Source of the DNA: Trichodesmium erythraeum IMS101
GTDB lineage: Bacteria; Cyanobacteriota; Cyanobacteriia; Cyanobacteriales; Microcoleaceae
Assembly: GCF_000014265.1 (NCBI RefSeq)
Contig: NC_008312.1
Location: 3,630,001 to 3,662,000 of the forward strand
Reading direction: 5' to 3'
Length of the DNA: 32,000 nucleotides
Each line of letters starts with the position of its first letter. Position 1 is the stretch's first letter. The notes below the pieces were generated by a model that saw only the letters and a program-made list of their open reading frames with translations, was not told the origin of the DNA and made no database searches. Positions 9,989 to 26,440 of this stretch are shown here, one piece after another. The position numbers were made by a program, and so were the translations under genes.

Positions 9989-10085
9989 AAAAAGTATATG
10001 GTTCGCAGTAGGGTTTTAGCCATTGAAATATTTACCTTAGAGCTAAAACCTTACTGCAAGCTTTAATTATAACTATTCAACCGGA
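9989..10085 (+). repeat. ~90-bp dispersed hairpin repeat, copy 1 of 2 in window
   Basis: The stem is 16 bp with 1 mismatch: gcagtagggttttagc (10005-10020) and gctaaaaccttactgc (10042-10057). The tail aagctttaattataactattcaacc follows. The head (tatatggtt) and tail are shared with 25688-25775. Confidence 0.7.
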
Positions 10086-10296: not shown

Positions 10297-10533
10297 AAAT
10301 GAGTGACAGAGTTTTTTTTTCCATTTTCCTTATTCGGCTAGAGTTGCCGAAAATTGAATCTTAGGCTAGAGTTCCATTTCTAGTTGGGCTGGTCGCTCAT
10401 TTAAACTCGGGTTTTATTTGAGTATTCCCACTTTTTTACTAGAATTACTGATCACTTAATTGAGATGCACTCCATTTGTTCACATTTTGCGCAAATATTA
10501 TCCAGGAGTTACCAAGGGAGAACCCAGAAACTA

Positions 10534-10620
10534 TTTTTTTAAATCAATTTTTTTAAATCAATTTTTTTAAATCAATTTTTTTAAATCAATTTTTTTAAAT
10601 CAATTTTTTTAAATCAATTT
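10534..10620. repeat. 14-bp tandem repeat (AAATCAATTTTTTT), about 6 copies
   Basis: Units start at 10541, 10555, 10569, 10583, 10597 and 10611 and are perfectly identical. The array ends 10 nt from the stop codon of the heterocyclase gene. Confidence 0.95.
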
Positions 10621-10630
10621 CCCGGCCTCA

Positions 10631-12940
10631 TTAAAACACCATCGGCATTGAATTCATCTCCTCTTCTTGCAACGCTGCAGACAACAAACCCATTTTCACC
10701 GGAACATCATATAACCTCCCCTTGCCAAAGCGCGACCAAAAATGACGCAACCCAGGCACAATAACCTTAACTACTTTTAACTCAATATCCGGACGAGTCT
10801 GATCTAATACCAAAGTTTCCATTCCTGCCTCTTGAGCAATTTTCACACAAGTCAAAACATCATCATAAATATCATCGCTCCAAAGCTTAGGATAATCTCC
10901 ATAAACCTTAGCAGGTATTTCTGGATGGGGAGCTAAATAAGGATGACTTTCTAAAGTTGCTGTGGTCATCCATCTCTGGAGCCCTTCCTCCATCTGACTA
11001 ATATCTTGCTGATCCATTCCCAACCCAATTTGATTTACTTCCGTTACTGCTCGCAGAATGGCAATTTTCGGGTCAAAATGCGCTCCAAAACCAGTAATAA
11101 CTCGCTCATATTCTTCATTAACTCGACGAGATACGGCAGTAAAAGCAGGTATCCCTAAATCTGTAGTTAAATCTAATACCCATAACTCCCGCTGATTTTG
11201 TTCATAAAATTCTTGCACTTCCAATAAATAGGGGTCGTCAAAACTTGCTAAATCTACTCCCGGACGCTGCAAAGAATTATACCACCAAATTGCCACACTG
11301 TCGCGCTCAACTAATTCCATAAATCCTTGCAAAATTGCTTCTTCTATGGTATTGCCCGCAGCATTGCCATTGGAATCAGCTACACAAAAATTATGCTTTT
11401 TGGGCAATTTATAAGCATAATAACACCAAGCAGTAGGCAAATATTTGTGGGTCTCCTCCGTCAGTGACCACACTGGAGTCCATTCAATTTCTTGACTGGC
11501 ATCAAAAGGTTGGGGGATCCAATCATGAGCCACTTTAGAATTAGCATTCAATTCCTCCCGGTTAGCATACTGAGTCGGACTAAAATGTAGACATCTTTCT
11601 GGATGAATACCTTGCTTTCCCAATTTGGCTAAAGTTGACTTTTTCCGAGGTTCGTCTCCCTGGAATATTCCCGAATAACGTTCGATCGCTTCACAAAAAC
11701 CACTGGCTTTAGATTGGCGATCGCTCTTACCTTTACCTCCACTTTTATGACGCAGGGAACGACGCAAAGCACCGAGACTTTTCGCAGCACCAAAACTATG
11801 GATAGCACTGTAAGTATGAATTAAAGGATTTTCGGGGTCAGAAACTCGCACCAAAGCACTGACAACTCCTGTAATGGGACTAATCAATTTTTTGTAGCGT
11901 TTGGTTGTTTGGTCGGGAGTGAATGCCCGGTGACCGCCATCTGTGGTAAAATGCTTTTTGCGACTGCTGAGACTGAGAGGATAAGATGACATTTCTTGGA
12001 GTAACTTGGAATCTCCACAAGCTTCACATTGGGGGCGTTTACTCAAAATGTGAGTTGTTGTGGAGAAGTCGGTTTGGTTGAAAGTAACCACTTTTCCAGC
12101 GAGAGTAGTAAACTTTGGCATTTCTACCCCACTTTCTTTGACTATCCATTTCGCAACTTCCGTAGTTATAAGATTAATTCCCGTTGCCAAAGTTGAAGGA
12201 AGGAAAACAGGGGGAGGAGGCAAGCACCCAGTAACATCTCTTTTGCTAGCACTGGAGACAACAGATTTTTCTTTTTGTCGCAAAACTGTGGCTTCCACTT
12301 CCCGATGTCCCCGTAAACGTTGACTTAAGCATTCCCAACATCCTGTATTTTCTGGTTCAAATATGGGACCCAACCACAGGACTCCCCCTACTGGTTTTGC
12401 TAACAACCAAGGTTGGCTAGCTGAGAGGGCGGTTTTATTAATCTCTTTTAATTGTGGTTGGAGGTAGTCGTCGGTGAGAACAACTAATAGTGCCTTGCGG
12501 TCTGATGTGAGTGGGTAGTTTTCCCAAGGTTTAGTTTTGATACCCACTGCTGTTAAACTTTCGATTAATAAATCTGTGGTTGTTTCTCCCACTGAGGCGA
12601 TATAAACCGTATTTTTTTGGAGACAGTCCGAGGCGAATTGGGGTTCGACATTCAGTAATGACCAAAATGCAGCGGCAGGTGGGGGTAGTTCGGGAGTTGC
12701 TTCTGTTAAATAACCTTTAGTTTTGAGGCGGTTAAGAACATATTCTACGTCTTCTGGGTATGCTATTTCTGCTAAAGTTTCACAGATTTCCTCAAAGCTA
12801 TGTTGACCATCTAATAGGGGGATGAGTTGACAGTAGAATTCTCCGGTGAGGGCGTCGGTGGAATTTTCTCCTAGGAGGTAAACGTGCTTGGGTTCGATAA
12901 TTTCGATGTGAAAGTGGGGTTTGATTTGTGGATTTGACAT
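10631..12940 (-). CDS. Cyanobactin heterocyclase (PatD/TruD family; fused E1-like/RRE docking domain + YcaO cyclodehydratase)
   Basis: 769 aa, colinear by eye with PatD as I recall it. Matching blocks include IKPHFHIEIIEPKHVYLLGE, VLTDDYLQPQLKEINK, QPWLLAKPVGGVLWLGPIF, GCWECLSQRLRGHREVEA, RPQCEACGD, HFTTDGGHRAFTPDQT, SGKGKSDRQSKASGFCEAIERYSGIFQGDEPR, SNGNAAGNTIEEAILQGFMELVERDS, DQTRPDIELKVVKVIVPGLR and RLYDVPVKMG. Confidence 0.93.
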   Translation of the reverse strand: MSNPQIKPHFHIEIIEPKHVYLLGENSTDALTGEFYCQLIPLLDGQHSFEEICETLAEIAYPEDVEYVLNRLKTKGYLTEATPELPPPAAAFWSLLNVEPQFASDCLQKNTVYIASVGETTTDLLIESLTAVGIKTKPWENYPLTSDRKALLVVLTDDYLQPQLKEINKTALSASQPWLLAKPVGGVLWLGPIFEPENTGCWECLSQRLRGHREVEATVLRQKEKSVVSSASKRDVTGCLPPPPVFLPSTLATGINLITTEVAKWIVKESGVEMPKFTTLAGKVVTFNQTDFSTTTHILSKRPQCEACGDSKLLQEMSSYPLSLSSRKKHFTTDGGHRAFTPDQTTKRYKKLISPITGVVSALVRVSDPENPLIHTYSAIHSFGAAKSLGALRRSLRHKSGGKGKSDRQSKASGFCEAIERYSGIFQGDEPRKKSTLAKLGKQGIHPERCLHFSPTQYANREELNANSKVAHDWIPQPFDASQEIEWTPVWSLTEETHKYLPTAWCYYAYKLPKKHNFCVADSNGNAAGNTIEEAILQGFMELVERDSVAIWWYNSLQRPGVDLASFDDPYLLEVQEFYEQNQRELWVLDLTTDLGIPAFTAVSRRVNEEYERVITGFGAHFDPKIAILRAVTEVNQIGLGMDQQDISQMEEGLQRWMTTATLESHPYLAPHPEIPAKVYGDYPKLWSDDIYDDVLTCVKIAQEAGMETLVLDQTRPDIELKVVKVIVPGLRHFWSRFGKGRLYDVPVKMGLLSAALQEEEMNSMPMVF

Positions 12941-12965
12941 TATAATTATTTCAGTTAATTATGTG

Positions 12966-12990
12966 GGTTGGGTTGAGGAAGGAAACCCAA
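12966..12990. repeat. Dispersed hairpin repeat GGTTGGGTTGAGGAAGGAAACCCAAC
   Basis: gttgggtt and aacccaac form an 8-bp stem. The same element, with 2 differences, occurs at 19902-19929. This copy lies in the 5' leader of the heterocyclase gene. Confidence 0.65.
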
Positions 12991-13109
12991 CAAATACAAA
13001 TTGTTAAGTTACCTCAAATCACCAGAAGGCCAGCACTATAATATTTTATGTAGTGTCTAGACCAATTGTCAGTATATAATCATAACATTGAGTCATAAAT
13101 TATATACAC

Positions 13110-13172
13110 AGGACTTAAGCAAATTGATCTATGGACGCCATTTGTTATAGGACGTGCTCGTGGGTAAGTCCT
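13110..13172. repeat. MITE-like element with GGACTTA...TAAGTCC terminal inverted repeats
   Basis: aggacttaagc (13110-13120) pairs with gggtaagtcct (13162-13172). It belongs to the same family as 27260-27373 and 29310-29398. Confidence 0.5.
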
Positions 13173-13249
13173 GATACAAAAACTAATCCGCAAAAATGGA
13201 GAACAGTTTTTGAGAAATGCTACAAGTCCTGAATATAATAATCTCATAG

Positions 13250-13588
13250 TCAGGATGAACGGTTGATTCTAATTAACTTATTTTTTAAGCTTTCAGTAGT
13301 TGAAATTGTCCCATGAATTCGGTTGGCAACTCCAACAAAGTTAGAATCTTCTGTACAAACAATTATTCCTTCATGGTTGGAATTAGCAATATGTAGTTGA
13401 ATGAAATCACGACGATTTCGTGTCAAAACAGCTCGTCCGTTATTAACAGCAAATGCTAATACTTCTTCATCGGGGATTTGTAAATTTGCTTTACCTGCCG
13501 CTTGAGCAGTTAAAACATTATAACCCATATTTGTTAAATTTTTGACGACAGGCAATGGAAAGTTTTCATCTGCATAAAGTAGTACCAT
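13250..13588 (-). CDS. DUF5615-family PIN-like putative toxin
   Basis: 112 aa. MVLLYADENFPLPVVKNLTNMGYNVLT...AVLTRNRRDF matches the (F/L)-x-ADEN...G-x-x-V... pattern of DUF5615/Mut7-C-like PIN proteins. Its start lies 1 nt from the stop of the upstream DUF433 gene, suggesting translational coupling. Confidence 0.75.
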   Translation of the reverse strand: MVLLYADENFPLPVVKNLTNMGYNVLTAQAAGKANLQIPDEEVLAFAVNNGRAVLTRNRRDFIQLHIANSNHEGIIVCTEDSNFVGVANRIHGTISTTESLKNKLIRINRSS

Positions 13589-13589
13589 C

Positions 13590-13964
13590 TTATTCTACTT
13601 CTGTTTCCATGATGACTTCATTCTCTCGAATAGCACTTTCAATCTCTTCTAGATGTCTTTCTGCATAAACCCAAGCATTGACTAGATCAACAGCACTGAG
13701 GGTAGGAAATGCTGCCAAAATCTCAGGGTCGCTCATTCCTAAGCGGCGATCGCTCACCAATGACCAAACTGGAATCCGAGTTTTCCCAACACAAGCATCA
13801 CCACCACACACATTGGGCGTTTTGTTAATTCCTTGGGAAGCAAGAGTTTGAGTTGCTAGTAGTCTCAAAGCTACATTTATAGCTTCATCGAGGGAACAAT
13901 ATTGACCACTTTGTACTTGATTACGAATAAATTTTTCTAGTTCTGGGTCGAGAGTTATTTCCAT
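13590..13964 (-). CDS. Putative antitoxin: N-terminal ParD-like ribbon-helix-helix segment fused to a DUF433 domain
   Basis: ITLDPELEKFIRNQVQSGQYCSLDEAINVALRLL resembles the ParD/RHH antitoxin N-terminus. GGDACVGKTRIPVWSLV...AFPTLSAVDLVNAWVY is the DUF433 core. The track start at 14006 is TTG and overlaps an IS fragment, so I prefer the ATG at 13964 (MEITLD...). Confidence 0.7.
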   Translation of the reverse strand: MEITLDPELEKFIRNQVQSGQYCSLDEAINVALRLLATQTLASQGINKTPNVCGGDACVGKTRIPVWSLVSDRRLGMSDPEILAAFPTLSAVDLVNAWVYAERHLEEIESAIRENEVIMETEVE

Positions 13965-13965
13965 A

Positions 13966-14130
13966 ATCTTATTATATTTCAAACTGAAAATTCCCAGGGG
14001 TATCAAATAAATGGCCAGAAAACCTGGAAACTTTCAAGTTGGGCACTCCTACCATATTACCACCTGTTGCAATAATTGTGAATTCAAACTGATAGATGGG
14101 CAAATACAGGGAAGTTTTTCTCTAGATCAT
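13966..14130 (+). mobile_element. 5' fragment (upstream sequence plus first ~40 codons) of an IS200-like Y1 transposase, second copy
   Basis: cttattatatttc...ataaATGgccagaaaacctggaaactttcaagttgggcactcctaccatattaccacctgttgcaataattgtgaattcaaactgat is clearly homologous at nucleotide level to 16103-16270. It encodes MARKPGNFQVGHSYHITTCCNNCEFKLI and then loses the frame. Confidence 0.75.
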
Positions 14131-14173
14131 CATCAGACTTGAAACAGAGCGATCGCTCCCTTCTACTTCTCTA

Positions 14174-14323
14174 CAGATAGTGCAGAAAATTTGGGTGCAA
14201 CATGACGGTACTGAAGATGCGATCGCTGACCAATTAGTCGAAAAAGGAGTACCTGCAGAAGATATTGTTTTGGCCTATCATCCACCATTACTCAGAAAAT
14301 ATACAGAATTTGCCGAAAGTTAA
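14174..14323 (+). pseudogene. XisI (fdxN-element excision factor family) C-terminal fragment
   Basis: My translation ends at the TAA at 14321-14323: ...QIVQKIWVQHDGTEDAIADQLVEKGVPAEDIVLAYHPPLLRKYTEFAES*. This matches the conserved XisI C-terminus (KIWIQ-x-DGTE-x-GIA..L...G-x-P...IVLAFHPP). There is no start codon or N-terminal half. Confidence 0.7.
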
Positions 14324-14540
14324 TTAAAAGTACTTCTGTTGGTTAGTTTATACAACATGTACTATACTGTACTTAGTTTGACTTTGTCTAGTCCAAGTCG
14401 ATGTCAAACATTTCTTTATTGCCAATACTTGTCTGTTGGCCAAAGACTCGTTGGCCATAAAAGCTATTGATTGACTTTTCCCCGTGGGGTAGTAATGAAA
14501 AAAGTAATTAATATAGACAACTTTTGCAACTTTATAAGTT

Positions 14541-14578
14541 AAAAATTAAAAAAAATTAAAAGTTAAAAGTTAAAACTC
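14541..14578. repeat. STRR-like heptamer array (AAAAGTT / AAAAATT)
   Basis: aaaaatt ... aaaaatt aaaagtt aaaagtt aaaactc ends 2 nt before the oxidase ATG at 14581. Confidence 0.6.
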
Positions 14579-14580
14579 AA

Positions 14581-16008
14581 ATGACATCCTCTCTATTCAC
14601 TCTATCCCTAACTTCATTAGTCACCCTGATCCATGAAGATGACAATATCATATTACAAGCTCCCATCCGCAGTCCACTCAAAAAAACTACTCCAACTCGC
14701 CAAGTCAAATTTGAACATCCCTCCTCAGGTTTAATATCGGCATTAAATCATCTCAAGTCTTCCCAGAAAACCTACCCTCAACTTAAAGCATTAGTGGTAG
14801 CTGCTGATGGCGAGGAAGCGGGAGAAAGATTTGATGTAGAATTGGAAAAACTCATAAATACAGGTTGGGTTTCCCATTCCCTTTACCCCCTGGCAACAGT
14901 TATCCCAATAGTGGAAAAAAACTATCGCTTTAAGTCTCCAGAAATTGCACAACTACAAGGAAAATTTACCTTGTCCCGTTTTGCCTATTTACACCAAAGC
15001 CAAGGGAAAACCATCATAGAATGTCCCCTGTCTACTAGTCAAATAATTGCATTAGACTGGCGATGTGGTGCCTTGCTTGCCAAATTATCTCAACCACAAA
15101 CCCCTAGCAGTTTGAGCGCAGATATTCCCGATATTACTGAAGAAATTGCCCAAAAATTCCTGGCTTTGTTGATGGCAACTCAAATGTTATCCCCAGAAAC
15201 CGAACCCACCCCGCTGATGTATTGGGAATTTCACGACTTGCTATTTCACAGTCGCTCTCGGATAGGAAGACACAACAACCCAACTGGAGGCACAATGAGA
15301 TTTTTTGGCAAAACTGAACCTTTGCCTATTGTCAAACCACCAATGAGTGACAAAGTTATTAAACTGGTGCAACCTAACTTAGAATATTTGACTCAAATTG
15401 ACATTCCCTTGACAAAAGCATTGGAGTTACGCCAGTCTATTCGGGAGTACGATGAACAACCAATACGGTTGCAACAATTGGGAAAATTGTTATATTGTTG
15501 CGCTAGGATTAAAAAAATAGAGACTATGGAAACAGAGGAATTCGGTACACTGCATTTAAACTATCGTCCTTATCCTTGTGGCGGTGCAATTTATGAGTTG
15601 GAAATTTATCCAGTGGTGAACCGTTGTCAAGGTTTGGCAGCAGGGGTCTATCACTATCAACCTTTGGAGCATTGTCTGTATCAAATTTCGGCTCATGAAA
15701 CACAAGTGGAGGCATTGATAGAGGATGCTTACAAGTCTAGTGGTGAACAAGATCAACCTCAAGTTTTGTTGGTAATAACAGCTAGGTTTGGGCGAATATT
15801 TTGGAAGTATGAATCAATTGCTTATGCTTTGATATTGAAGCACGTTGGTGTATTGTATCAAACTTTTTATTTAATGGCAACGGGGATGCACTTAGCTCCC
15901 TGTGCTTTGGGGATAGGAGATGCTGATAATTTTGCTCAGATAACAGGGTTAGATTATTATGAAGAGTCTTCTGTTGGGGAGTTTCTTTTGGGTTCGGTGA
16001 GGAACTAG
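14581..16008 (+). CDS. Stand-alone cyanobactin azoline oxidase (SagB-type FMN dehydrogenase, ThcOx-like)
   Basis: 475 aa. The C-terminal ~220 aa is a nitroreductase/SagB-type domain (RQSIREYDEQPI...RPYPCGGAIYELEIYPVV...GVYHYQPLEH...LLVITARFGRIFWKYESIAYALILKHVGVLYQTFYLMATGMHLAPCALG). The N-terminal ~230 aa is an extra region, as in stand-alone cyanobactin oxidases. Confidence 0.85.
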   Translation: MTSSLFTLSLTSLVTLIHEDDNIILQAPIRSPLKKTTPTRQVKFEHPSSGLISALNHLKSSQKTYPQLKALVVAADGEEAGERFDVELEKLINTGWVSHSLYPLATVIPIVEKNYRFKSPEIAQLQGKFTLSRFAYLHQSQGKTIIECPLSTSQIIALDWRCGALLAKLSQPQTPSSLSADIPDITEEIAQKFLALLMATQMLSPETEPTPLMYWEFHDLLFHSRSRIGRHNNPTGGTMRFFGKTEPLPIVKPPMSDKVIKLVQPNLEYLTQIDIPLTKALELRQSIREYDEQPIRLQQLGKLLYCCARIKKIETMETEEFGTLHLNYRPYPCGGAIYELEIYPVVNRCQGLAAGVYHYQPLEHCLYQISAHETQVEALIEDAYKSSGEQDQPQVLLVITARFGRIFWKYESIAYALILKHVGVLYQTFYLMATGMHLAPCALGIGDADNFAQITGLDYYEESSVGEFLLGSVRN

Positions 16009-16144
16009 TTATTACGGCGCTACCCCGTTTTTTCGGTAAAAATTTAGTTTCCGGAGATATCTAATAAGAATGTAGAGCACCGAATATATGGAGAGTTATT
16101 TTCTAATTATATTTCCCACTCCAAATACCCAAATGTATAAATAA

Positions 16145-16931
16145 ATGGCTAGAAAACCTCGAAACTTTCAAACTGGATATTCCTACCACATTACCACCCG
16201 TTGCAATAATCGTGAATTTAAACTGATCCGACGCGAATGCAGGGAAGTTTTTCTCTATGCCATCAAGAAAGCTATTAAGAAGTACAACTTCAAACTGTAC
16301 GCTCTCTGTATTATGTCTAATCACGTCCATTATCTTATAGAACCCGCCCAACCTGAAGATTTAGCTAAAATTATGCATTTTCTCAACTGGTATACGGCTA
16401 TGTGCTTTAACCGAATGTTGAAGCGCACTGGACATTTTTTATTGGGAAAAACGTTATTTTGCTGATGGTTTTCCTCCAGGCGATGGGGAGCGAGCTATAA
16501 ATACTCTTCGATATATCCATGGAAATCCCAAAGCTGCCAAAATACGCGGGGGGTTTTTCTACGACTTTAGTAATTATGGTAGTTACGAACGTTTGACTGA
16601 TGATGGTCTCACGGAGTGGCATCCAGCTTTTTTGAAATTAGCCAATACTTTGGAAGGGTGTGCCCAGAAGTATAAGGGGTTTTGCAACAAATACAAGCCA
16701 AAACAAAAAACTCCCAAAAAGTCCCACTGGGGAAGTAGGCTTTTAGGGGGTATAACTCTCAATTTTGAAAAGCGATCGTCTCAAAAGACAAAAAAATCAT
16801 CGACTTCCTTTGACTTTCCCCCGTGCCAGGTACCCCCGTGCCAGGTAACCGAAAAGCTAGAAGTAGCAAAGGTAGTAAGTCAATTTGTTGAAGCAAACAG
16901 ACCGCCGAAGCAAGAGGGAAAGGATTTTTGA
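16145..16931 (+). pseudogene. IS200-like / REP-associated tyrosine (Y1, HUH) transposase, frameshifted
   Basis: Frame 1 reads MARKPRNFQTGYSYHITTRCNNREF...CIMSNHVHYLIEP (HUH motif H-V-H)...RTGHF. The protein continues in the +1 frame from 16443 as WEKRYFADG...INTLRYIHGNPKAA (catalytic Tyr motif). About 4 extra nt at 16437-16442 break GHF|WEKRY. Confidence 0.8.
16641..16859 (+). repeat. Direct repeat, left copy (3' part of the IS200-like transposase gene)
   Basis: It aligns base for base with 17503-17706. By eye I count 4 mismatches plus a 15-nt internal tandem duplication (cccccgtgccaggta x2) found only in this copy. Confidence 0.9.
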
Positions 16932-16964
16932 CATTTTCTTGAGTTATGTGATACGCTAAAGTTC

Positions 16965-17168
16965 TTACTCGTCGTCTCCGTCGTAAGAACAGCTACAGAG
17001 TCTAGGGTGTAACCCATCACCAGAGGGCCCTGGGCCATTTGCCAATGGGCCATGGCCTTGGTTTCCTTCTGTGAGGTTCTCTTCTCTGAGTTCCTCCAGG
17101 GCAGGTCTAGCAACTAGGGAGCGAAAAACAGGTTGACTTGAGTTGGGCTGGATATTCTTTTTTCCCAT
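16965..17168 (-). CDS. Cyanobactin precursor peptide (PatE-like), single core
   Basis: I verified the translation codon by codon: MGKKNIQPNSSQPVFRSLVARPALEELREENLTEGNQGHGPLANGPGPSGDGLHPRLCSCSYDGDDE. The leader blocks M-x-KKN-x-x-P-x-x-x-x-PV-x-R and L-x-EL-x-EE-x-L resemble PatE/TruE/TenE. The C-terminal SYDG is the macrocyclase signature. A GAGG lies 8 nt upstream of the ATG. Confidence 0.85.
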   Translation of the reverse strand: MGKKNIQPNSSQPVFRSLVARPALEELREENLTEGNQGHGPLANGPGPSGDGLHPRLCSCSYDGDDE

Positions 17169-17200
17169 GGATATTACCTCTGTTTGTTTGGATATAGATA

Positions 17201-17229
17201 ATAGTAATAAAGTTTCTTTTTTCTGTCAA
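17201..17229 (-). promoter_or_regulatory. Sigma70-type promoter candidate for the precursor gene
   Basis: On the minus strand: TTGACA (complement of 17224-17229), exactly 17 nt, then TACTAT (complement of 17201-17206). It sits ~33 nt upstream of the ATG at 17168. Confidence 0.45.
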
Positions 17230-17502
17230 TTATATTTCCCCCAGTTTGATTAATTTTTGAAACTTTTCTCTACCTGTCAGACTATTGAACGCAGGCGGGG
17301 GCGAGCGTGATTACACCAAAATCTGTTGAAACCCTCGCGCGGAGCGACCATAGATAAATTAGATTTTGAGCCCAGGCATTACTTAATGGCATTACTATTA
17401 GCAAGAGATCAGTTAACTTCTCCTCAAATAGACTACAACTTTGTAGGGAGGTTGCTTTGTAGGAACGTTCCCAGATAACTGATACAATTAACAACTATAT
17501 TC

Positions 17503-17706
17503 GCCAATACTTTGGAAGGGTGTGCCCAGAAGTATAAGGGGTTTTGCAACAAATACAAGCCAAAACAAAAAACTCCCAAAAACTCCCACTGGGGAAGTAG
17601 GCTTTTAGGGGGTATAACTCTCAATTTTGAAAAGCGATCGTCTCAAAAGACAAAAAAATTATCGACTTCTTTTTACTTTCCCCCGTGCCAGGTAACCGAA
17701 AAGCTA
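17503..17706 (+). repeat. Direct repeat, right copy (orphan 3' fragment of a second IS200-like transposase copy)
   Basis: See 16641-16859. It encodes ...NTLEGCAQKYKGFCNKYKPKQKTPKNSHWGSRLLGGITLNFEKRSSQKTKK... with no upstream catalytic part. Confidence 0.9.
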
Positions 17707-17835
17707 CTATTAGCAAGACCTTAGAGTGACCATTATGTACAAAAATAAAAATAATTTTAAATTATTGGTAAAAATTTCAGCACTTACTATGGTAAGTTAT
17801 ATACGATTTATAAAAAAACAGGAGTTAAACATTGG

Positions 17836-17880
17836 TAACTAATGACTAATAACTGATAACTAATAATTAATAACTGATAA
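17836..17880. repeat. STRR heptamer array (TAACTAA/TAACTGA, 6 units)
   Basis: taactaa tgactaa taactga taactaa taattaa taactga taa ends 3 nt before the PatA-like ATG at 17884. Confidence 0.85.
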
Positions 17881-17883
17881 AAG

Positions 17884-19884
17884 ATGCCCGAAATTTCTTC
17901 AATTCCTGGAATCAAACAACTATGGGCAAAAACCAAAGGTAACTCTGAGGTTTGCGTGGCAGTGCTTGACGGTCTAGTTGACCTGAAACATCCTTGTTTT
18001 GAGGGAGCTAATTTGACTCAACTACCAAGCTTAGTTCAAGGTCAAGCTACTCCTCAAAGCGAGATGTCTCTCCATGGGACTCATGTGGCCAGTATAATTT
18101 TTGGTCAGCCAAACTCAAGCGTCTCTGGTATTGCTCCCCACTGTCGAGGTTTAATAGTTCCCATATTCTCAGACTATCATCGCCGAACTTCTCAGTTGAA
18201 TTTAGCACGGGCCATCGAACAAGCGGTGAATGCTGGGGCTAATATTATTAATATTAGTGGGGGTGAACTGACAGATTATGGTGAAGCTGAAGACTGGCTT
18301 AACCGTGCGGTGAGTTTATGCCAAAATAATAATGTTTTGCTTGTTGCTGCAGCGGGTAATGACGGCTGTGAATGTTTGCATGTTCCGGCAGCACTACCCA
18401 CTGTTCTAGCAGCAGGAGCCATGGGAGAAAACGGACAGCCCCTAGATTATAGTAACTGGGGCGAAAATTATCAGACTCAAGGTATTCTGGCTCTGGGAGA
18501 AAATATTTTAGGTGCTGAACCAGGAGGTGGTACAAGACAGTTGAGTGGGACCAGCTTTGCCACCCCAGTAGTGTCAGGAGTTGCTGCATTATTGATGAGT
18601 TTGCAGTTGCAAAGAGAGGAAAAACCAGACTCACAAAAAGTGCGTACTGCCTTACTCAAGACAGCTGTTCCATGTCATGCTCAAGAAAAACGCCGTTGTT
18701 TAGTTGGCCAGATGAATATTTCAGGTGCCATTGCACATATAACAGGAGAAACTATGTCAGAATCAGAACAAGATAATAGTAATGGTATTGAAGCTAGCTG
18801 TGGTTGTGAGTCAACTCCAGAAGCTAGCTTGCCAGGTTCAGTTGGCCTAGAAAATAGTCTACCGACTCCCGCCGACAATGGTGTGGTAGCTGCAGGGGTC
18901 GTTGAAGCTGGCGTCACGGCTTCACAACCATTATCATCAACTAATACATCTAATACATCTAATAATCAAATTTCTGCTATGCCAAATAATAGTCAAAGTA
19001 ACAATAGTAATGGAATCACACCCAGTCAACCTCCTCAAGACGTGACAAATATAGTCTACGTTATTGGTACATTGGGTTATGACTTTGGAACTGAAGCACG
19101 GCGGGACTCATTTAAACAGTTGATGCCAGCAGTTACTATTGGAAATACCCAAATTCCAGCTAACCCTTATGATGCTCGTCAAATGGTGGATTATTTGGCG
19201 AATAATCTTTCGGAAGCTAAATCTTTGATTTGGACTTTGAATATGGAATTGACTCCTATCTATGCTATTGAAGCTGTGGGGTCATTTGCACGGGAAGTTT
19301 ATGAAGCTTTGCAAGAGTTACTTGCAGGGGAAGTAGAAGCGGAAGATGCTGAGAGATATATTGAGCGGGTGAGTATTCCGGGAAAATTAACTGGGCGTAC
19401 AGTTAAGTTGTTCTCAGGCCAAGTGGTGCCTGTGATTGAACCTGTTAGTCCTCGTGGTATTTATGGCTGGCGGGTGAATACATTGGTTGGTTCTGCTTTG
19501 GAAGCAGTTCGTGGAGAACAAGCAGAGGCTGACGATGAGCAAATGCGTCGGAGTTTGAGCAGTTTCCTAAATCGAGTTTATTACGATCTACGCAATTTAG
19601 GGCAGACTTCTCAAGACCGAGCTTTAAATTTTGCAGCTACTAATGCTTTCCAAGCGGCTCAAACTTTCTCTACAGCAGTGGCAGCAGGCATGGAGTTGGA
19701 TAGTATTGCTGTGACCAAGAGTCCATTCTGTCGGATGGATAGTGATTGTTGGGACGTGCAGTTGAAGTTTTTCGATCCAGAAAATAACCGTCGGGCGAAG
19801 AAGGTGTTCCGGTTTACCATTGATGTTAGCGATTTCATTCCGGTAACTTTGGGCGAAGTTCGTTCTTGGTCTTCTCCTTATTAG
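17884..19884 (+). CDS. Cyanobactin N-terminal protease (PatA family: subtilisin domain + PatA/PatG C-terminal domain)
   Basis: 666 aa. The triad contexts are AVLDG, HGTHVASIIFGQ and SGTSFATPVVSGVAALL. It is nearly colinear with PatA as I recall it (GIAPHCRGLIVPIFSD, VNAGANIINISGGE, NNVLLVAAAGNDGCECLHVPAALP). An Asn/Ser-rich linker precedes the C-terminal domain GTLGYDFGTEARRDSFKQLMP...FRFTIDVSDFIPVTLGEVRSWSS. Confidence 0.92.
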   Translation: MPEISSIPGIKQLWAKTKGNSEVCVAVLDGLVDLKHPCFEGANLTQLPSLVQGQATPQSEMSLHGTHVASIIFGQPNSSVSGIAPHCRGLIVPIFSDYHRRTSQLNLARAIEQAVNAGANIINISGGELTDYGEAEDWLNRAVSLCQNNNVLLVAAAGNDGCECLHVPAALPTVLAAGAMGENGQPLDYSNWGENYQTQGILALGENILGAEPGGGTRQLSGTSFATPVVSGVAALLMSLQLQREEKPDSQKVRTALLKTAVPCHAQEKRRCLVGQMNISGAIAHITGETMSESEQDNSNGIEASCGCESTPEASLPGSVGLENSLPTPADNGVVAAGVVEAGVTASQPLSSTNTSNTSNNQISAMPNNSQSNNSNGITPSQPPQDVTNIVYVIGTLGYDFGTEARRDSFKQLMPAVTIGNTQIPANPYDARQMVDYLANNLSEAKSLIWTLNMELTPIYAIEAVGSFAREVYEALQELLAGEVEAEDAERYIERVSIPGKLTGRTVKLFSGQVVPVIEPVSPRGIYGWRVNTLVGSALEAVRGEQAEADDEQMRRSLSSFLNRVYYDLRNLGQTSQDRALNFAATNAFQAAQTFSTAVAAGMELDSIAVTKSPFCRMDSDCWDVQLKFFDPENNRRAKKVFRFTIDVSDFIPVTLGEVRSWSSPY

Positions 19885-19901
19885 AGGAGCGGCTAGGTGT
19901 A

Positions 19902-19929
19902 GGTTGGGTTGAGGAAAGGAAACTCAACC
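19902..19929. repeat. Dispersed hairpin repeat GGTTGGGTTGAGGAAAGGAAACTCAAC (possible terminator of the PatA-like gene)
   Basis: It is the same element as 12966-12990 and lies 18 nt downstream of the 19884 stop. Confidence 0.55.
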
Positions 19930-20033
19930 AGCCATCAGCAGCTGAGTTAAACTGATTTAATAGGATATAGTTTAAGACATAGTTAGTAGACTTTCCAAGT
20001 AGACTTTACTTCTCCGGTTCTCTACTACGAACT

Positions 20034-20072
20034 TAAAAACAAATAGCAACGATTTTGGTTATCAATCGTTGC
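20034..20072 (-). terminator. Intrinsic terminator candidate for the minus-strand PatB/PatC-like unit
   Basis: A perfect 9-bp stem (gcaacgatt at 20046-20054, aatcgttgc at 20064-20072) encloses a 9-nt loop. On the minus strand TATTTGTTTTT follows. It lies ~42 nt past the stop at 20114. Confidence 0.5.
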
Positions 20073-20113
20073 CTAAATTCACAAAATCCTTGGCGGGCTA
20101 CTGAGGCTCCTCC

Positions 20114-20332
20114 TTATGCCCAAATGCGCCCGCGACGAGGGAAAGGAGGTTTGCCTTCCCGCTTTTGGTCTTGAAACATTCCCTTCCAACGTCCATAATC
20201 TTCTAGACCTGTTGCCAATATAGTGTTCTCTTCTATTTTAAGCTCAGGTTGTTGGACTGGTTGTGATGGTGGAGAAGTTATTTCTGACTTAGCTTGAGGT
20301 GTTTTTTTGACATCTTTTTTCGACATGATCAT
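20114..20332 (-). CDS. Small Pro/Lys-rich protein in the PatC position (tentative PatC/TenC/TruC-like)
   Basis: 72-aa ORF. A perfect AAGGAGG lies 6 nt upstream of the second ATG at 20326 (MSKKDVKK...), which is probably the true start. It is co-oriented with and downstream of the PatB-like ORF, as in patB-patC. I assign the family from position and size only, not from remembered sequence. Confidence 0.45.
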   Translation of the reverse strand: MIMSKKDVKKTPQAKSEITSPPSQPVQQPELKIEENTILATGLEDYGRWKGMFQDQKREGKPPFPRRGRIWA

Positions 20333-20413
20333 CCTCCTTTTGACATTTCCAGGGATTGAAACACCCTGTATTTTAAATTAGTGTAACATTTAACCGACTC
20401 AAAACTATACGCT

Positions 20414-20608
20414 TTAAATCTGTACGGCATCACCAGTTAAAGTGATTGCTGCTACCTGCAAAGCTCGTAACATGACATTATGAATGCTGTTGCACACCCA
20501 GTGTGCAGTATATCCGCACTGAGGGCATTGAAACTTTTTGTGACCACTTAGTTTTTTGTGGTTCTGATCCCATTCAGGGTAGTATAAGACTCCTTTGAAT
20601 TGGCCATC
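20414..20608 (-). pseudogene. Possible decayed TnpB (IS605 OrfB / IS1341-type) C-terminal fragment
   Basis: My reverse translation has no start codon: DGQFKGVLYYPEWDQNHKKLSGHKKFQCPQCGYTAHWVCNSIHNVMLRALQVAAITLTGDAVQI*. The F-x-CP-x-CG-x-x-x-(HWV)-x-N-x-x-x-N-x-x-x-x-AL block is colinear with the W-x-CP-x-CG...DRD-x-NA-x-x-N zinc-ribbon/RuvC-III end of TnpB, but the DRD is lost. Confidence 0.3.
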
Positions 20609-20671
20609 CTAACCATAAGATATAATCTGAGTTATATGTGGGATAATTATATTGCCAAAGCTAAAGCCTCA

Positions 20672-20887
20672 CTACAAACAAAAATAGTTACCACCCCAAC
20701 CAGAAGACATGATCTGATTATATGTGGGATAATTATAGGGTGCCGGATCGTTATAGTTAGCTCCGTGCATCAAATCCATACGAATTGCTACTAGGTCTTG
20801 ACCCCGGCCGTGCTCCACATCTACTGCTAGATGAGGAGAAATAATATCGGGTCTTTTTACCGGAGCTGCTTGTTTAGGTAATCTCAT
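20672..20887 (-). CDS. Small protein in the PatB position (tentative PatB/AcyB/McaB-like); N-terminus resembles a cyanobactin leader
   Basis: 71 aa with an ATG start: MRLPKQAAPVKRPDIISPHLAVDVEHGRGQDLVAIRMDLMHGANYNDPAPYNYPTYNQIMSSGWGGNYFCL. It is transcribed divergently from the PatG-like gene and is followed by the PatC-like ORF on the same strand. I assign the family from context. Confidence 0.45.
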   Translation of the reverse strand: MRLPKQAAPVKRPDIISPHLAVDVEHGRGQDLVAIRMDLMHGANYNDPAPYNYPTYNQIMSSGWGGNYFCL

Positions 20888-21036
20888 ATTTTTGACTAGA
20901 CTATATATTCAATTAATTCAGTCTATTATACCTTATTAATCATAATAGAACAAACTTGACAATTCTTAATTGGTTGCCTATTTGCCAACTTTAGGTGTAA
21001 ACTTAGTCTGGAAATGTAATTTATATTGAATGAATT

Positions 21037-23145
21037 GTGCCAGACTTTGCAGATATTCCCGGACTCACCAAATTATGGACTCACACGAAAGGAGACCCTC
21101 GCATCACAGTTGCCCTCCTCGATGGAACTGCTGATATAGAACGTGGTTGCTTTCAGGGGGCCAATGTTACGAAAATCAATTCTTATTGGCAAGAAGCAAT
21201 AGAGCTTGACCCCAAAGATATAGACACCTACCGAGAAATTCAGAACTCTGATGAAAAAAGTGAAGTTAAACAGGCAAAACTGAAAGAAGCTATCCCAGAC
21301 GAAATAACTTTACAAATTCTCGGAGCAGCTTTCCACGCGACTCATGTCTTTAGTAACATTTTCGGACAACCAGGAACTCCCGTGGAAGGTATTGCCTACA
21401 AATGTCGGGGCATTAATATTCCTCTTGGTTATGGTAATGACTATTATATCGACCCCATAAACTTAGCTCGTGGCATTAACCTAGCAGTAGACTTGGGAGC
21501 AAATATTATTCACTGTGCTGCCTGTCGCCCTAACCAAACTGGTATTGGTCACGAAATTCTAGAAAAGGCAGTACGTCAAGCTCAGGAAAATAATGTTTTA
21601 ATTGTGGCTCCCACAGGCAATAATAAAGGTGAATGTTGGTGTCTCCCTGCTATTTTGCCTGGAGTCATGTCCGTAGGAGCAATGAAGGATAATGGTCAGG
21701 TATTCAAATTTAGTAACTGGGGCGGACAATATCAACAACAAGGTATTATTGCTCCGGGGGAAAATATTCTCGGTGCTCAACCAGGAACAGAAGAAACTGT
21801 CCGCCAAAAAGGTACCAGTTGTGCAGCGCCAATGGTGACAGCTATTTCGGCATTGCTGATGAGTTTGCAGTTGCAGCAAGGAGCATCTCCAGATGCAGAA
21901 GCAGTGAGGGCAGCTTTAACAAACAGTGCTATTCCCTGCACTTTAGAAGATACCGAAGAAATCGAACGTTGTATGTTGGGTAAACTGAATGTTGCCGGAG
22001 CTTATCAACTTTTGACAGGAAAGCAGTTAGAAGCAGTGGGAGTTTCTGCGGCTGAAGCGACCTCAGAAGAAGATGTAATATTGGAAGATAGTGGGGTTGA
22101 TGTGGGGGAAGTTATTGTAGATGAAACTTCAGTAGTTCCTGCCCAGGAAAATGCTCCCATATCTTTTTCTCTGCCAGTGGGAGAAAATAGAGAGAGTCTG
22201 ACAAATGTGGCAACAAATATCACTGCTGCATCGGGAGTAGAGCAAAACAATATCAAACCCACAAAAGTTTCTCAAACTGCTCATGGTGTTACCCCGAGTG
22301 CTCGCTCCAATATGATTTATGCTTTGGGTACCTTGGGTTATGATTTTGGTACTGAGGCACGACGAGACTCATTTAAACAGTTAATGCCAGCAGTGATATT
22401 AAACGGGGTACAAGTTCCAGCTAATCCCTATGATGGTCGTCAGATGGCTGATTATCTGGATGCTAATTTATATGAAGGGAAATCTTTAATCTGGACTTTC
22501 AATATAGAATTAACTCCTATTTATGCCCTCAGACCTGTAGGTGCATTTGCGGACGATATTTATGAAACTCTGCAAAATATGTTAGCAGGAGAGGTGGAGG
22601 CAGAAGACCATGAAGACTACATCGACAGGGTGAGTATTACCGGGAGGTTAACTGACCAAACAGTAAAGTTGTTTTCTGGGCAAACCCTGCCGGTGGTGAA
22701 AATAAACAGCCCCCGGGGAATGTATGGTTGGACGGTGAATAGCCTAATAGATAATGCTTTGGAGTCAGTTAGGACAGAACAAACAGAGGCAGAGGAGGAG
22801 GCAATACGGAAATCTCTGAGAAGTTTTTTGCAACGGGTTTATTATGATCTGCGCAACCTGGGTCAGGCAGATCGCGATCGCGCCATCAACTTTGCAGCGA
22901 CAAATGCTTTCCAAGCAACGGCGACTATTTCTGAAGCAGTAGCTATTGGCATGGAGTTGCACAGTATAGAGGTAGAGAAGAGTCCTTTCTGTCGTTACAA
23001 TAGTAACTGTTGGGATGTTAAGTTGAAATTTTTTAACCCAGATAATAGTAGGAGAGCCAAGAGAGTTTATCGTTTTACTATTGATGTGTCAGATTTAATG
23101 CCTGTAACTTTGGGTAAAGTGCGGTCTTGGTCTGTGCCTAAGTGA
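21037..23145 (+). CDS. Cyanobactin C-terminal protease/macrocyclase (PatG family, no oxidase domain) + PatA/PatG C-terminal domain
   Basis: 702 aa with a GTG start. The triad contexts are ALLDG, HATHVFSNIFGQ and KGTSCAAPMVTAISALLMSLQ. The Asp-to-His spacing is ~35 aa longer than in the PatA-like paralog (insert ~21172-21321, SYWQEAIELDPKDIDTYREIQNSDEKSEVKQAKLKEAIPDEITLQIL). This fits the macrocyclase-specific capping insertion. The C-terminal domain runs GTLGYDFGTEARRDSFKQLMP...YRFTIDVSDLMPVTLGKVRSWS. Confidence 0.9.
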   Translation: MPDFADIPGLTKLWTHTKGDPRITVALLDGTADIERGCFQGANVTKINSYWQEAIELDPKDIDTYREIQNSDEKSEVKQAKLKEAIPDEITLQILGAAFHATHVFSNIFGQPGTPVEGIAYKCRGINIPLGYGNDYYIDPINLARGINLAVDLGANIIHCAACRPNQTGIGHEILEKAVRQAQENNVLIVAPTGNNKGECWCLPAILPGVMSVGAMKDNGQVFKFSNWGGQYQQQGIIAPGENILGAQPGTEETVRQKGTSCAAPMVTAISALLMSLQLQQGASPDAEAVRAALTNSAIPCTLEDTEEIERCMLGKLNVAGAYQLLTGKQLEAVGVSAAEATSEEDVILEDSGVDVGEVIVDETSVVPAQENAPISFSLPVGENRESLTNVATNITAASGVEQNNIKPTKVSQTAHGVTPSARSNMIYALGTLGYDFGTEARRDSFKQLMPAVILNGVQVPANPYDGRQMADYLDANLYEGKSLIWTFNIELTPIYALRPVGAFADDIYETLQNMLAGEVEAEDHEDYIDRVSITGRLTDQTVKLFSGQTLPVVKINSPRGMYGWTVNSLIDNALESVRTEQTEAEEEAIRKSLRSFLQRVYYDLRNLGQADRDRAINFAATNAFQATATISEAVAIGMELHSIEVEKSPFCRYNSNCWDVKLKFFNPDNSRRAKRVYRFTIDVSDLMPVTLGKVRSWSVPK

Positions 23146-25687: not shown

Positions 25688-25775
25688 TAAAATATATGGT
25701 TTATAGTAGAGCTTTAGCCCTCAGTATAGATAGAGCTTTTGCTTTACTATTAGCTTTAATTATAACTATTCAACC
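25688..25775 (+). repeat. ~90-bp dispersed hairpin repeat, copy 2 of 2 in window
   Basis: aaaatatatggtttatagtagagctttagcc...gctttactattagctttaattataactattcaacc shares its head, stem outline and 25-nt tail with 9989-10085, in the same orientation. Confidence 0.7.
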
Positions 25776-26340: not shown

Positions 26341-26440
26341 ATTTTCAGACGACTTAGCTCCGGGAGCTCAAACTCAATAGGAGCTAATAAAATTTCAGAC
26401 AACCTAGCCCCGGGAGCCCAAACTCAATAGGAGCTAAAAT
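26341..26440. repeat. 50-bp tandem duplication (2 copies, ~6 mismatches), each with a short palindrome
   Basis: attttcagacgacttagctccgggagctcaaactcaataggagctaataa is followed by aatttcagacaacctagccccgggagcccaaactcaataggagctaaaat. Copy 1 contains the palindrome agctcc-g-ggagct. The array starts 10 nt beyond the PP2C stop. Confidence 0.85.

What the first reader, a model, noticed from the sequence alone, without database searches (positions are those of the whole stretch)
16965..17168. Single-core precursor with a polar core and contiguous Cys-Ser-Cys: predicted GDGLHPRLCSC macrocycle
The 67-aa peptide carries three cyanobactin recognition elements. The leader has MGKKNIQPNSSQPVFR and LEELREENL (compare PatE MNKKNILPQQGQPVIR and LAELSEEAL). 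GPGPS sits where the G(L/V)E(A/P)S N-terminal protease site normally lies. The C-terminus is SYDGDDE (compare AYDG/SYDG). This brackets one core, GDGLHPRLCSC (nt 16989-17021). The C-terminal Cys fits the rule that a heterocycle or Pro precedes the macrocyclisation site. Four things are unusual. First, there is only one cassette. Second, the core is charged (Asp, His, Arg), whereas described cyanobactins are mostly hydrophobic. Third, three consecutive heterocyclisable residues (C-S-C) could yield a contiguous thiazole-(oxazoline/Ser)-thiazole unit once the heterocyclase and oxidase act, unlike the alternating pattern of patellamide-type products. Fourth, the N-terminal cut site is non-canonical, so the core boundary is uncertain.
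Basis: partly seen in the sequence, partly recalled or inferred. Interest (0 to 1): 0.85.

Follow-up and report, generated by a model that had tools for sequence, protein, structure and literature searches.

The report
Known trichamide precursor gene (Trichodesmium)

Summary
It is a bona fide PatE-type cyanobactin precursor (TIGR03678 E=6e-19, Pfam DUF5837). It sits among a PatD/TruD-type YcaO heterocyclase, a standalone ThcOx-type oxidase, a PatA-type protease and a PatG-type macrocyclase. It is 100% identical to WP_044136730.1 of Trichodesmium erythraeum. The window is that organism's 12.5-kb tri cluster, bordered by aspS and lysS as published.

The predicted core GDGLHPRLCSC is, letter for letter, trichamide (Sudek et al. 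2006, as tabulated in PMC2854353): 11 residues, N-C cyclised, two thiazoles, MW 1,099.2. My calculation for cyclo(GDGLHPRLCSC) with two thiazoles and an unmodified Ser gives 1,099.25. So the cut after GPGPS is confirmed, and the Cys-Ser-Cys stretch gives thiazole-Ser-thiazole, not three contiguous heterocycles.

Side result: metagenomes hold at least 56 variants with an invariant leader and CSYDGDDE tail but unrelated cores. Some sit in tandem [repeat + precursor] units built from the 3' end of a Y1 transposase gene. I found no paper on this.

The parts
16965..17168 (-). Trichamide precursor gene (67 aa plus stop). I recall it as triG in Sudek et al. 2006, but I could not verify the name here.
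   Evidence: ORF. TIGR03678 and DUF5837 hits. 100% identical to T. erythraeum WP_044136730.1.
17121..17168 (-). Leader N-terminus MGKKNIQPNSSQPVFR (residues 1-16), PatE-like.
   Evidence: Aligns to PatE MDKKNILPQQGQPVIR in PDB 4v1u_C and 2kya_A. Invariant in 60 homologues.
17073..17099 (-). LEELREENL (residues 24-32), the counterpart of PatE LAELSEEAL, the leader element bound by the heterocyclase (RSI).
   Evidence: Alignment to PatE. L24, L27, E29, N31 and L32 are invariant and E25, E26, R28 and E30 are at least 90% conserved in 60 homologues. The binding role is inferred from LynD/PatE structures (4v1t family), not tested here.
17022..17036 (-). GPGPS (residues 45-49), the N-terminal protease recognition site (RSII). 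Cleavage is after Ser49.
   Evidence: Aligns with GMEAS, GIQAA, GLQAQ and GVRSA in variant precursors. The boundary of nucleotide divergence against L014 falls exactly after GPGPS. The published product starts at Gly50.
16989..17021 (-). Core peptide GDGLHPRLCSC (residues 50-60), which is trichamide.
   Evidence: The exact string is listed for trichamide in PMC2854353. The mass matches two thiazoles plus a free Ser.
16968..16988 (-). SYDGDDE (residues 61-67), the C-terminal recognition element for the PatG-type macrocyclase (RSIII).
   Evidence: G64 and D66 are invariant and S61, Y62, D63, D65 and E67 are at least 90% conserved in 60 homologues. Of 56 variants, 55 have Cys and 1 has Thr immediately before it.
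17201..17229 (-). Promoter-like site TTGACA-17 nt-TACTAT, about 33 nt upstream of the ATG.
   Evidence: Consensus scan, 10 of 12 matches. Consensus match only, not shown to be functional.
16723..16739 (-). Terminator-like hairpin plus T-run downstream of the precursor gene, inside the repeat. An identical copy lies at 17585-17601.
   Evidence: Consensus match only.
10631..12940 (-). PatD/TruD/LynD-type YcaO heterocyclase (769 aa).
   Evidence: Pfam YcaO E=3e-101 plus an N-terminal winged-helix domain. TIGR03604 and TIGR03882 hits. Full-length PDB hits to MusD 7u58, LynD 4v1t and TruD 4bs9, E=0.
14581..16008 (+). Standalone ThcOx-type FMN azoline oxidase (475 aa).
   Evidence: Pfam ThcOx, HTH_57 and Nitroreductase. 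TIGR03605 SagB. PDB 5lq4 and 8pz5, E about 1e-131.
17884..19884 (+). PatA-type N-terminal protease (666 aa).
   Evidence: TIGR03895 E=5e-293. The best PDB hits are N-terminal cyanobactin proteases 4h6w and 4h6v (444 and 408 bits), well above PatG macrocyclase domains (about 200 bits).
21037..23145 (+). PatG-type C-terminal protease/macrocyclase without an oxidase domain (702 aa, GTG start as listed).
   Evidence: TIGR03895 E=1e-282. The best PDB hits are PatG macrocyclase domains 4h6x, 4aks and 4akt (342-349 bits), above the PatA-type proteases (232-260 bits).
16637..16869 (+). Repeat copy 1, downstream of the precursor gene. It is the 3' part of the Y1 (IS200/RAYT-like) transposase pseudogene.
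17499..17716 (+). Repeat copy 2, upstream of the precursor gene (97% identical, spacing 862 nt). It is an isolated duplicate of Y1 transposase residues 165-236.
   Evidence: It is absent from the otherwise syntenic locus L011.
16145..16931 (+). Y1 transposase pseudogene, frameshifted near 16438-16440 and read as ORFs 16145-16465 and 16593-16931.
   Evidence: Pfam Y1_Tnp and NCBIfam REP_Tyr_transpos, the latter below its cut-off. tblastn of the intact 255-aa L011 protein splits into two frames.
13250..14006 (-). DUF5615 and DUF433/ParD-like pair, toxin-antitoxin-like, inside the cluster and conserved in all related loci.

Best explanation
The ORF is the precursor peptide of trichamide in the tri cyanobactin cluster of Trichodesmium erythraeum (IMS101-type genome). 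Proposed mechanism, step by step:

1. The 67-aa peptide is translated.
2. The YcaO heterocyclase (10631-12940) docks on the PatE-like leader (LEELREENL region) and cyclodehydrates Cys58 and Cys60 to thiazolines. Ser59 is left alone.
3. The PatA-type protease (17884-19884) removes the leader by cutting after GPGPS.
4. The PatG-type macrocyclase (21037-23145) recognises SYDG, cuts after the Cys60-derived heterocycle and joins it to Gly50, giving an 11-residue N-C macrocycle.
5. The standalone ThcOx-type oxidase (14581-16008) oxidises the two thiazolines to thiazoles.

The product is cyclo[Gly-Asp-Gly-Leu-His-Pro-Arg-Leu-Thz-Ser-Thz], C46H66N16O12S2, 1099.25 Da.

Shown, either published or computed here: the identity of the gene and the core, the product composition (11 aa, two thiazoles, N-C cyclic) and the enzyme family assignments. 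Inferred from pat/tru/lyn/thc biochemistry: the order of steps and which enzyme performs each one in this organism.
For: The sequence and coordinates come and the family hits. The protein is 100% identical to T. erythraeum WP_044136730.1 on a 7,750,108-bp contig. The window DNA is 100% identical to Logan contigs (L003-L006) that carry the identical precursor and 99.98% identical to the NCBI and ENA contigs L001 and L002. The core string matches the published trichamide entry (11 aa, 2 thiazoles, 1,099.2 Da, Sudek et al. 2006) in PMC2854353. My calculated mass of 1099.25 fits only the form with two thiazoles and a free Ser. The oxazoline and oxazole forms would be 1081.2 and 1079.2. PMC7345825 states that trichamide has 'serylthiazole and leucylthiazole moieties'. 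The cluster spans 10631-23145, which is 12,515 bp. It has a bidirectional layout, a separate oxidase, a single precursor and flanking tRNA-synthetase genes (aspS 8104-9891, lysS 24024-25592), all as described for tri in PMC4663559 and PMC2854353. The enzymes match solved PatA, PatG, TruD/LynD and ThcOx structures. Comparative support for the core boundaries: window and L014 are identical up to GPGPS, unrelated for exactly 33 nt, and identical again from SYDG.
Against: Nothing substantive. The primary paper (PMC1489667) is not in the held library, so structural details come from two reviews. One review prints the formula as C44H66N16O12S2, whereas the sequence requires C46. The H, N, O and S counts agree, and the C46 mass is the one that matches the published 1,099.2, so this is most likely a misprint. 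The order of enzymatic steps has not been shown for the tri enzymes themselves.
Confidence: 0.97

Rival explanations
1. The product carries three contiguous heterocycles (thiazole-oxazoline/oxazole-thiazole) because the heterocyclase also processes Ser59.
For: The heterocyclase is a full-length PatD/TruD/LynD homologue, and some members of that family, such as PatD, also cyclise Ser and Thr (established knowledge).
Against: The published product has two thiazoles, no oxazoline or oxazole, and a mass of 1,099.2. The calculated masses for the oxazoline and oxazole forms are 1081.2 and 1079.2. A review describes a 'serylthiazole' unit, meaning an intact Ser attached to a thiazole.
Confidence: 0.03
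2. The non-canonical GPGPS is not the cleavage site, so the real core is longer or shorter than GDGLHPRLCSC.
For: GPGPS departs from the G(L/V)E(A/P)S consensus, and a second GP motif (HGPLAN) lies upstream.
Against: The published 11-residue composition equals residues 50-60. In variant alleles the same alignment column holds GMEAS, GIQAA or GLQAQ. The sharp boundary of nucleotide divergence lies immediately after GPGPS.
Confidence: 0.02
3. The peptide and its product are a previously undescribed cyanobactin. This is the novelty reading implicit in the first reader's score.
For: None after checking.
Against: There is an exact protein match to an annotated T. erythraeum protein and an exact core match to trichamide in the literature.
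Confidence: 0.01

Closest known systems
Trichamide precursor and tri cluster of Trichodesmium erythraeum IMS101 (Sudek, Haygood, Youssef & Schmidt 2006, Appl Environ Microbiol 72:4382)
   Same: Everything matches. The protein is identical and the core GDGLHPRLCSC is identical. The cluster is also 12.5 kb and bidirectional, with a separate oxidase, two proteases, one heterocyclase, a single-copy core, flanking tRNA-synthetase genes and no PatF-type gene.
   Different: Nothing. This is the same locus.
PatE and the patellamide (pat) pathway of Prochloron
   Same: The leader architecture is the same (MxKKNIxPxxxQPVxR ... LxELxEExL), as are the (A/S)YDG C-terminal signal and the PatA, PatD and PatG homologues.
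   Different: This precursor has one cassette instead of two. The N-terminal site is GPGPS instead of G(L/V)E(A/P)S. The ring has 11 polar residues instead of 8 hydrophobic ones. Only Cys is heterocyclised. The oxidase is a separate protein rather than a PatG domain. There are no PatB, PatC or PatF homologues in this window.
thc pathway (cyanothecamides) of Cyanothece sp. PCC 7425, with ThcOx
   Same: Both have a standalone 470-475-aa oxidase with the ThcOx domain architecture. The oxidase here matches 5lq4 at E about 1e-131 over nearly its full length.
   Different: The organism, the precursor set and the cores all differ.
Natural combinatorial core libraries of cyanobactins: pat/tru variants in Prochloron (Donia et al. 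2006, from memory), anacyclamides and piricyclamides (PMC2854353, PMC3428304)
   Same: The side result matches this pattern. In Trichodesmium-type contigs the leader and flanks are about 100% identical at the nucleotide level and only the core cassette is replaced.
   Different: I found no description of this for Trichodesmium in the held literature. Here the cassettes also occur as tandem units of about 850 nt bounded by a repeat derived from a Y1 transposase gene.

Membership tests
Cyanobactin (PatE-type) precursor peptides | Conserved PatE-like leader recognised by the curated family models. | tested here: met
   TIGR03678 scores 68.1 bits against a cut-off of 39.6 (E=5.9e-19). Pfam DUF5837 scores 34.6 bits against a cut-off of 25. 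The leader aligns to PatE chains in the PDB.
Cyanobactin (PatE-type) precursor peptides | A core bracketed by an N-terminal protease site and a C-terminal (A/S)YDG-type site, with a heterocyclisable residue or Pro as the last core residue. | tested here: met
   The sequence reads GPGPS | GDGLHPRLCSC | SYDGDDE. The residue before SYDG is Cys in 55 of 56 homologues and Thr in 1.
Cyanobactin biosynthetic gene cluster | Both a PatA-type protease and a PatG-type macrocyclase encoded next to the precursor. | tested here: met
   TIGR03895 gives E=5e-293 and 1e-282. The best PDB hits are reciprocal: PatA/PagA for 17884-19884 and the PatG macrocyclase domain for 21037-23145.
Cyanobactin biosynthetic gene cluster (heterocycle-containing type) | A PatD/TruD-type YcaO cyclodehydratase and an azoline oxidase. 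| tested here: met
Cyanobactin biosynthetic gene cluster | A PatF-type (DUF5838) prenyltransferase homologue. This is common but not defining. | tested here: not met
   tblastn of the L011 DUF5838 protein finds no hit in the window. This agrees with the published remark that tri is the exception lacking an F gene.
Trichamide (the specific compound and locus) | Precursor and core sequence identical to the published ones, from T. erythraeum. | tested here: met
   100% identity to WP_044136730.1. The core string equals the published trichamide sequence.
Trichamide (the specific compound and locus) | The product is an N-C cyclic 11-mer with two thiazoles. | not testable with these tools
   Taken from the literature. 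The calculated mass of 1099.25 agrees with the published 1,099.2.

The most novel reading that the evidence does not exclude
The trichamide precursor is one allele of a large natural core library in oceanic Trichodesmium that appears to be undescribed. At least 56 different cores, from roughly 6 to about 20 residues depending on where each variant is cut and many of them Cys-rich, sit on a leader that is invariant even at the nucleotide level. They lie in a cluster backbone 96-99% identical to this one. Precursor copy number varies from 1 to 3 through tandem [repeat + precursor] units of about 850 nt, whose repeat is the 3' end of the neighbouring Y1 (RAYT-like) transposase gene. Recombination between these repeats would be the means of cassette gain, loss and exchange. 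One lineage also carries a PatF-type gene, so some of these products may be prenylated.
Probability: 0.4. Interest if true: 0.4.

Novelty: already known. Interest (0 to 1): 0.08.

Why it matters
For the finding as given, it matters little. The gene, the cluster and the compound were published in 2006 as an early example of predicting a natural-product structure from a genome, and no bioactivity was found for the compound. The value of this check is negative: it stops a well-reasoned but redundant 'discovery' from being pursued.

The side observation could interest people working on RiPP evolution and on Trichodesmium bloom chemistry. Field populations appear to carry dozens of trichamide-like cores on an invariant scaffold. 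That would give a ready list of predicted masses to look for in bloom metabolomes, and a case for studying how cassette hypervariability arises.

Tried and rejected
1. The primary paper PMC1489667 is not held. I used reviews instead.
2. The published gene names (triA-triK, with triG as the precursor) could not be verified in any held paper. I use functional names and mark the tri letters as recalled from memory.
3. The search for related loci in genome contigs returned only a spurious 15-residue match in a Chthoniobacterales MAG.
4. The search for related loci and an exact 42-nt leader pattern in metagenome contigs both returned nothing, although one JGI homologue exists in the protein collection (P0002). 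Variant loci were therefore obtained by exact-protein look-ups.
5. I considered whether the region between the two protease genes (19885-21036) holds a decayed PatF gene. It does not: there is no tblastn trace, and the difference from L011 is a clean 1.29-kb indel.
6. I considered whether base composition marks the cluster as foreign. The cluster genes have GC 0.40-0.45 and the flanks 0.27-0.42. The difference is too weak and too dependent on coding density to support any claim.
7. I considered an oxazoline at Ser59. It is rejected on mass and on the published composition.

Full report
**1. The observation.**
Reading the minus strand of 16800-17400 and listing ORFs confirms a 67-codon ATG-initiated ORF at 16965-17168. 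It encodes MGKKNIQPNSSQPVFRSLVARPALEELREENLTEGNQGHGPLANGPGPSGDGLHPRLCSCSYDGDDE.

Numbering from Met1, the parts map as follows:

| Element | Residues | Nucleotides |
|---|---|---|
| LEELREENL | 24-32 | 17073-17099 |
| GPGPS | 45-49 | 17022-17036 |
| SYDGDDE | 61-67 | 16968-16988 |

A GAGG lies about 10 nt upstream of the ATG. A promoter-like TTGACA-17-TACTAT lies at 17229-17201.

The match to the cyanobactin precursor family is not a chance resemblance. TIGR03678 gives E=5.9e-19, above its curated cut-off, and Pfam DUF5837 gives E=2.4e-8, also above its cut-off. The only PDB chains with any similarity are PatE peptides, aligned over the leader.

**2. The surroundings.**
- 10631-12940 (-) is a full-length PatD/TruD/LynD/MusD-type YcaO heterocyclase.
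- 14581-16008 (+) is a standalone ThcOx-type oxidase.
- 17884-19884 (+) is a PatA-type protease. Its best structural relatives are the N-terminal cyanobactin proteases.
- 21037-23145 (+) is a PatG-type protease. Its best relatives are the PatG macrocyclase domains, and it has no oxidase domain.

Other genes in or near the cluster:
- Between the heterocyclase and the oxidase lie a DUF5615 and DUF433/ParD-like pair (13250-14006) and a XisI fragment (14180-14323).
- Between the oxidase and the precursor lies a frameshifted Y1 (IS200/RAYT-like) transposase gene (16145-16931).
- The cluster is bordered by aspS (8104-9891) and lysS (24024-25592).

**3. Identity.**
The protein is 100% identical to the NCBI protein WP_044136730.1, 'microcyclamide/patellamide family RiPP [Trichodesmium erythraeum]'. 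It is carried on a 7,750,108-bp contig. The window DNA is 100% identical to four Logan contigs (L003-L006) that carry the identical precursor. It is 99.98% identical to an NCBI contig (L001) and an ENA metagenome scaffold (L002) that also carry it.

A full-text search for the core string found it in one paper, the 2010 cyanobactin review PMC2854353. [quoted passage not shown] 2006'.

The reviews describe the tri cluster as follows:
- 12.5 kb with 11 ORFs, bidirectional;
- a single precursor gene with a single core copy;
- an oxidase separate from the protease;
- bordered by tRNA-synthetase genes;
- the only cyanobactin pathway without an F gene.

Every one of these features is present in the window. 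The span 10631-23145 is 12,515 bp, and there is no PatF trace by tblastn. The finding is therefore the trichamide precursor gene.

**4.
For cyclo(GDGLHPRLCSC) I calculate the following:

| Form | Average mass (Da) |
|---|---|
| Unmodified | 1139.31 |
| Two thiazoles, Ser free (C46H66N16O12S2, monoisotopic 1098.4487) | 1099.25 |
| Two thiazoles plus oxazoline | 1081.23 |
| Two thiazoles plus oxazole | 1079.22 |

Only the first modified form matches the published 1,099.2. [quoted passage not shown] That review prints C44 where the sequence requires C46. The H, N, O and S counts agree, and the C46 mass matches the published value, so I take this as a misprint.

- (i) The single cassette is real and published.
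- (ii) The polar, charged core is real and published.
- (iii) Cys-Ser-Cys becomes Thz-Ser-Thz, with no third heterocycle.
- (iv) The GPGPS cut site is confirmed by the product.

**5. Mechanism.**
By homology with the pat, tru, lyn and thc systems, the steps are:
1. The heterocyclase binds the leader and cyclodehydrates Cys58 and Cys60.
2. The PatA-type protease cuts after Ser49.
3. The PatG-type enzyme cuts before Ser61 and macrocyclises.
4. The ThcOx-type oxidase aromatises the thiazolines.

The end product is established in the literature. The assignment of each step to each tri enzyme, and the order of steps, is inferred from family membership. It was not tested for these proteins in anything I could read.

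**6. Related sequences: a side result.**
The protein search returned 108 homologues. About 70 of them share the leader at 60-88% overall identity.

In an alignment of 60 of these, residues 1-24, L27, E29 and N31-T33 are invariant. E25, E26, R28 and E30 are at least 90% conserved. CSYDGDDE is nearly invariant. Everything between is hypervariable. Of the 60, 56 end in the standard (S)(Y/F)DG(D/E)DE tail and were scored. Their 56 variable regions are all different. The residue before SYDG is Cys in 55 and Thr in 1. The RSII column holds GPGPS, GVRSA, GMEAS, GIQAA, GLQAQ and others. This places GPGPS where a canonical GMEAS sits in sister alleles.

At the DNA level:
- The first 102 nt are 101-102/102 identical among five distinct alleles, and the last 27 nt are 26-27/27 identical.
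- In 30-nt windows, identity drops to 30-60% only over the core.
- Window and L014 are identical through GPGPS, differ over exactly 33 nt (GDGLHPRLCSC against FSFVYCKPPFT), and are identical again from SYDG.
- The loci carrying these alleles are 96-99% identical to the window over 2-10 kb.
- They include a 'Trichodesmium sp. ALOHA_ZT_67' MAG (L011) and an NCBI assembly GCA_000987385.1 (L016). I recall that assembly as T. thiebautii H9-4, unverified.

This is the 'constant scaffold, swapped cassette' pattern known from Prochloron pat/tru, Anabaena acy and Microcystis pir. Three literature searches found no description of it for Trichodesmium in the held library.

**7. Repeat architecture around the precursor gene.**
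The precursor gene is bracketed by two direct repeats, 16637-16869 and 17499-17716. They are 97% identical and 862 nt apart, and one copy has a 15-nt internal duplication. The downstream copy is the 3' end of the Y1 transposase pseudogene. The upstream copy is an isolated duplicate of residues 165-236 of that protein.

Related loci differ in this region:
- In L011, L014 and L018 the transposase gene is intact at 255 aa (tblastn).
- In L011 the upstream repeat copy is absent. L014 and L018 begin too close to the precursor gene to tell.
- In L007 there are two precursor genes with different cores, in tandem units of 846-870 nt that are 100% identical outside the core.
- L015 and L016 also have two units. 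One precursor in L016 and the one in L018 are frameshifted.

Each repeat carries a terminator-like hairpin.

The simplest reading is unequal recombination between the transposase-derived repeats, which changes precursor copy number. The isolated repeat in this window would then be the scar of such an event. This is inference. Short-read assemblies of tandem repeats can be wrong.

**8. Other differences between lineages.**
L011 has a 1.29-kb segment with a 318-aa DUF5838 (PatF-type) gene between the two protease genes. In the window this segment is replaced by 71 nt (19973-20043). L016 instead has a 587-aa TnpB-like gene there. L016 and L018 have an intact XisH/XisI pair where this window keeps only a XisI fragment.

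**9. Verdict.**
I rate novelty as 'already known' and interest as low. The cassette library and the tandem units are recorded as things noticed in passing. They also form the most novel reading that my evidence does not exclude.

Noticed in passing
Alignment A1 (P0002-P0071); loci L007, L011, L014, L015, L016, L018: There are at least 56 distinct core sequences on a leader that is invariant at both protein and nucleotide level, with a near-invariant CSYDGDDE tail. They lie in cluster backbones 96-99% identical to this window. Divergence is confined to the core: window and L014 differ over exactly the 33 core nucleotides. I found no paper on Trichodesmium precursor diversity in the held library.
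   Followed up: partly
window 16637-16869 and 17499-17716; L007 2429-4469; L015; L016 9018-10518: The precursor gene is bracketed by 97%-identical direct repeats derived from the 3' end of the adjacent Y1 transposase gene. Related contigs carry 2 precursor genes in tandem units of about 850 nt with the same structure, so precursor copy number is probably changed by recombination between these repeats.
   Followed up: partly
window 16145-16931 (+): The Y1 (IS200/RAYT-like) transposase gene is frameshifted near 16438-16440 and carries a 15-nt duplication (CCCCCGTGCCAGGTA x2, 16818-16847). It is intact at 255 aa in L011, L014 and L018. A 28-codon 5' fragment of the same gene lies at 14011-14094.
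   Followed up: yes
window 19973-20043 versus L011 6194-7483: A Trichodesmium sp. ALOHA_ZT_67 MAG has a 318-aa PatF-type (DUF5838) gene between the two protease genes. This window has a clean 1.29-kb gap there with no pseudogene trace. The published 'tri lacks an F gene' therefore holds for this strain but not for the whole genus.
   Followed up: partly
window 13250-14006 (-): A DUF5615 and DUF433/ParD-like gene pair, toxin-antitoxin-like, sits inside the biosynthetic cluster and is conserved at the same place in L011, L014, L016 and L018. Its role in the cluster is unknown.
   Followed up: no
window 14180-14323 (+): A 47-aa XisI fragment lies here. L016 and L018 have an intact XisH/XisI pair plus a DUF2281 gene at this position, so this genome carries a decayed version.
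   Followed up: no
window 10514-10625: About eight tandem copies of a 14-nt unit (AATCAATTTTTTTA) lie immediately downstream of the heterocyclase stop codon.
   Followed up: no
window 10038-10082 and 25731-25775: A 45-nt direct repeat (82% identical, last 24 nt identical) lies just outside aspS and just outside lysS, so it brackets the cluster plus lysS. Both copies are preceded by similar GTAG(G/A)G(T/C)TTTAGCC motifs. Both copies are also present in L011. It could be a dispersed REP-like element or a relic of island insertion. Not resolved.
   Followed up: partly
window 26339-26437: Two tandem copies of a 49-50-nt unit (90% identical) lie in an intergenic stretch.
   Followed up: no
Literature: PMC7345825, table of thiazole peptides: The review prints trichamide as C44H66N16O12S2. 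The sequence with two thiazoles requires C46H66N16O12S2 (1099.25 Da, matching the published 1,099.2), so this is probably a misprint.
   Followed up: yes
L017 1931-2143; L016 9018-9425; L018 204-453: Several homologous loci carry precursor genes that keep the leader but are frameshifted or truncated before the core or the SYDG tail. These are decayed cassettes within otherwise intact clusters.
   Followed up: no
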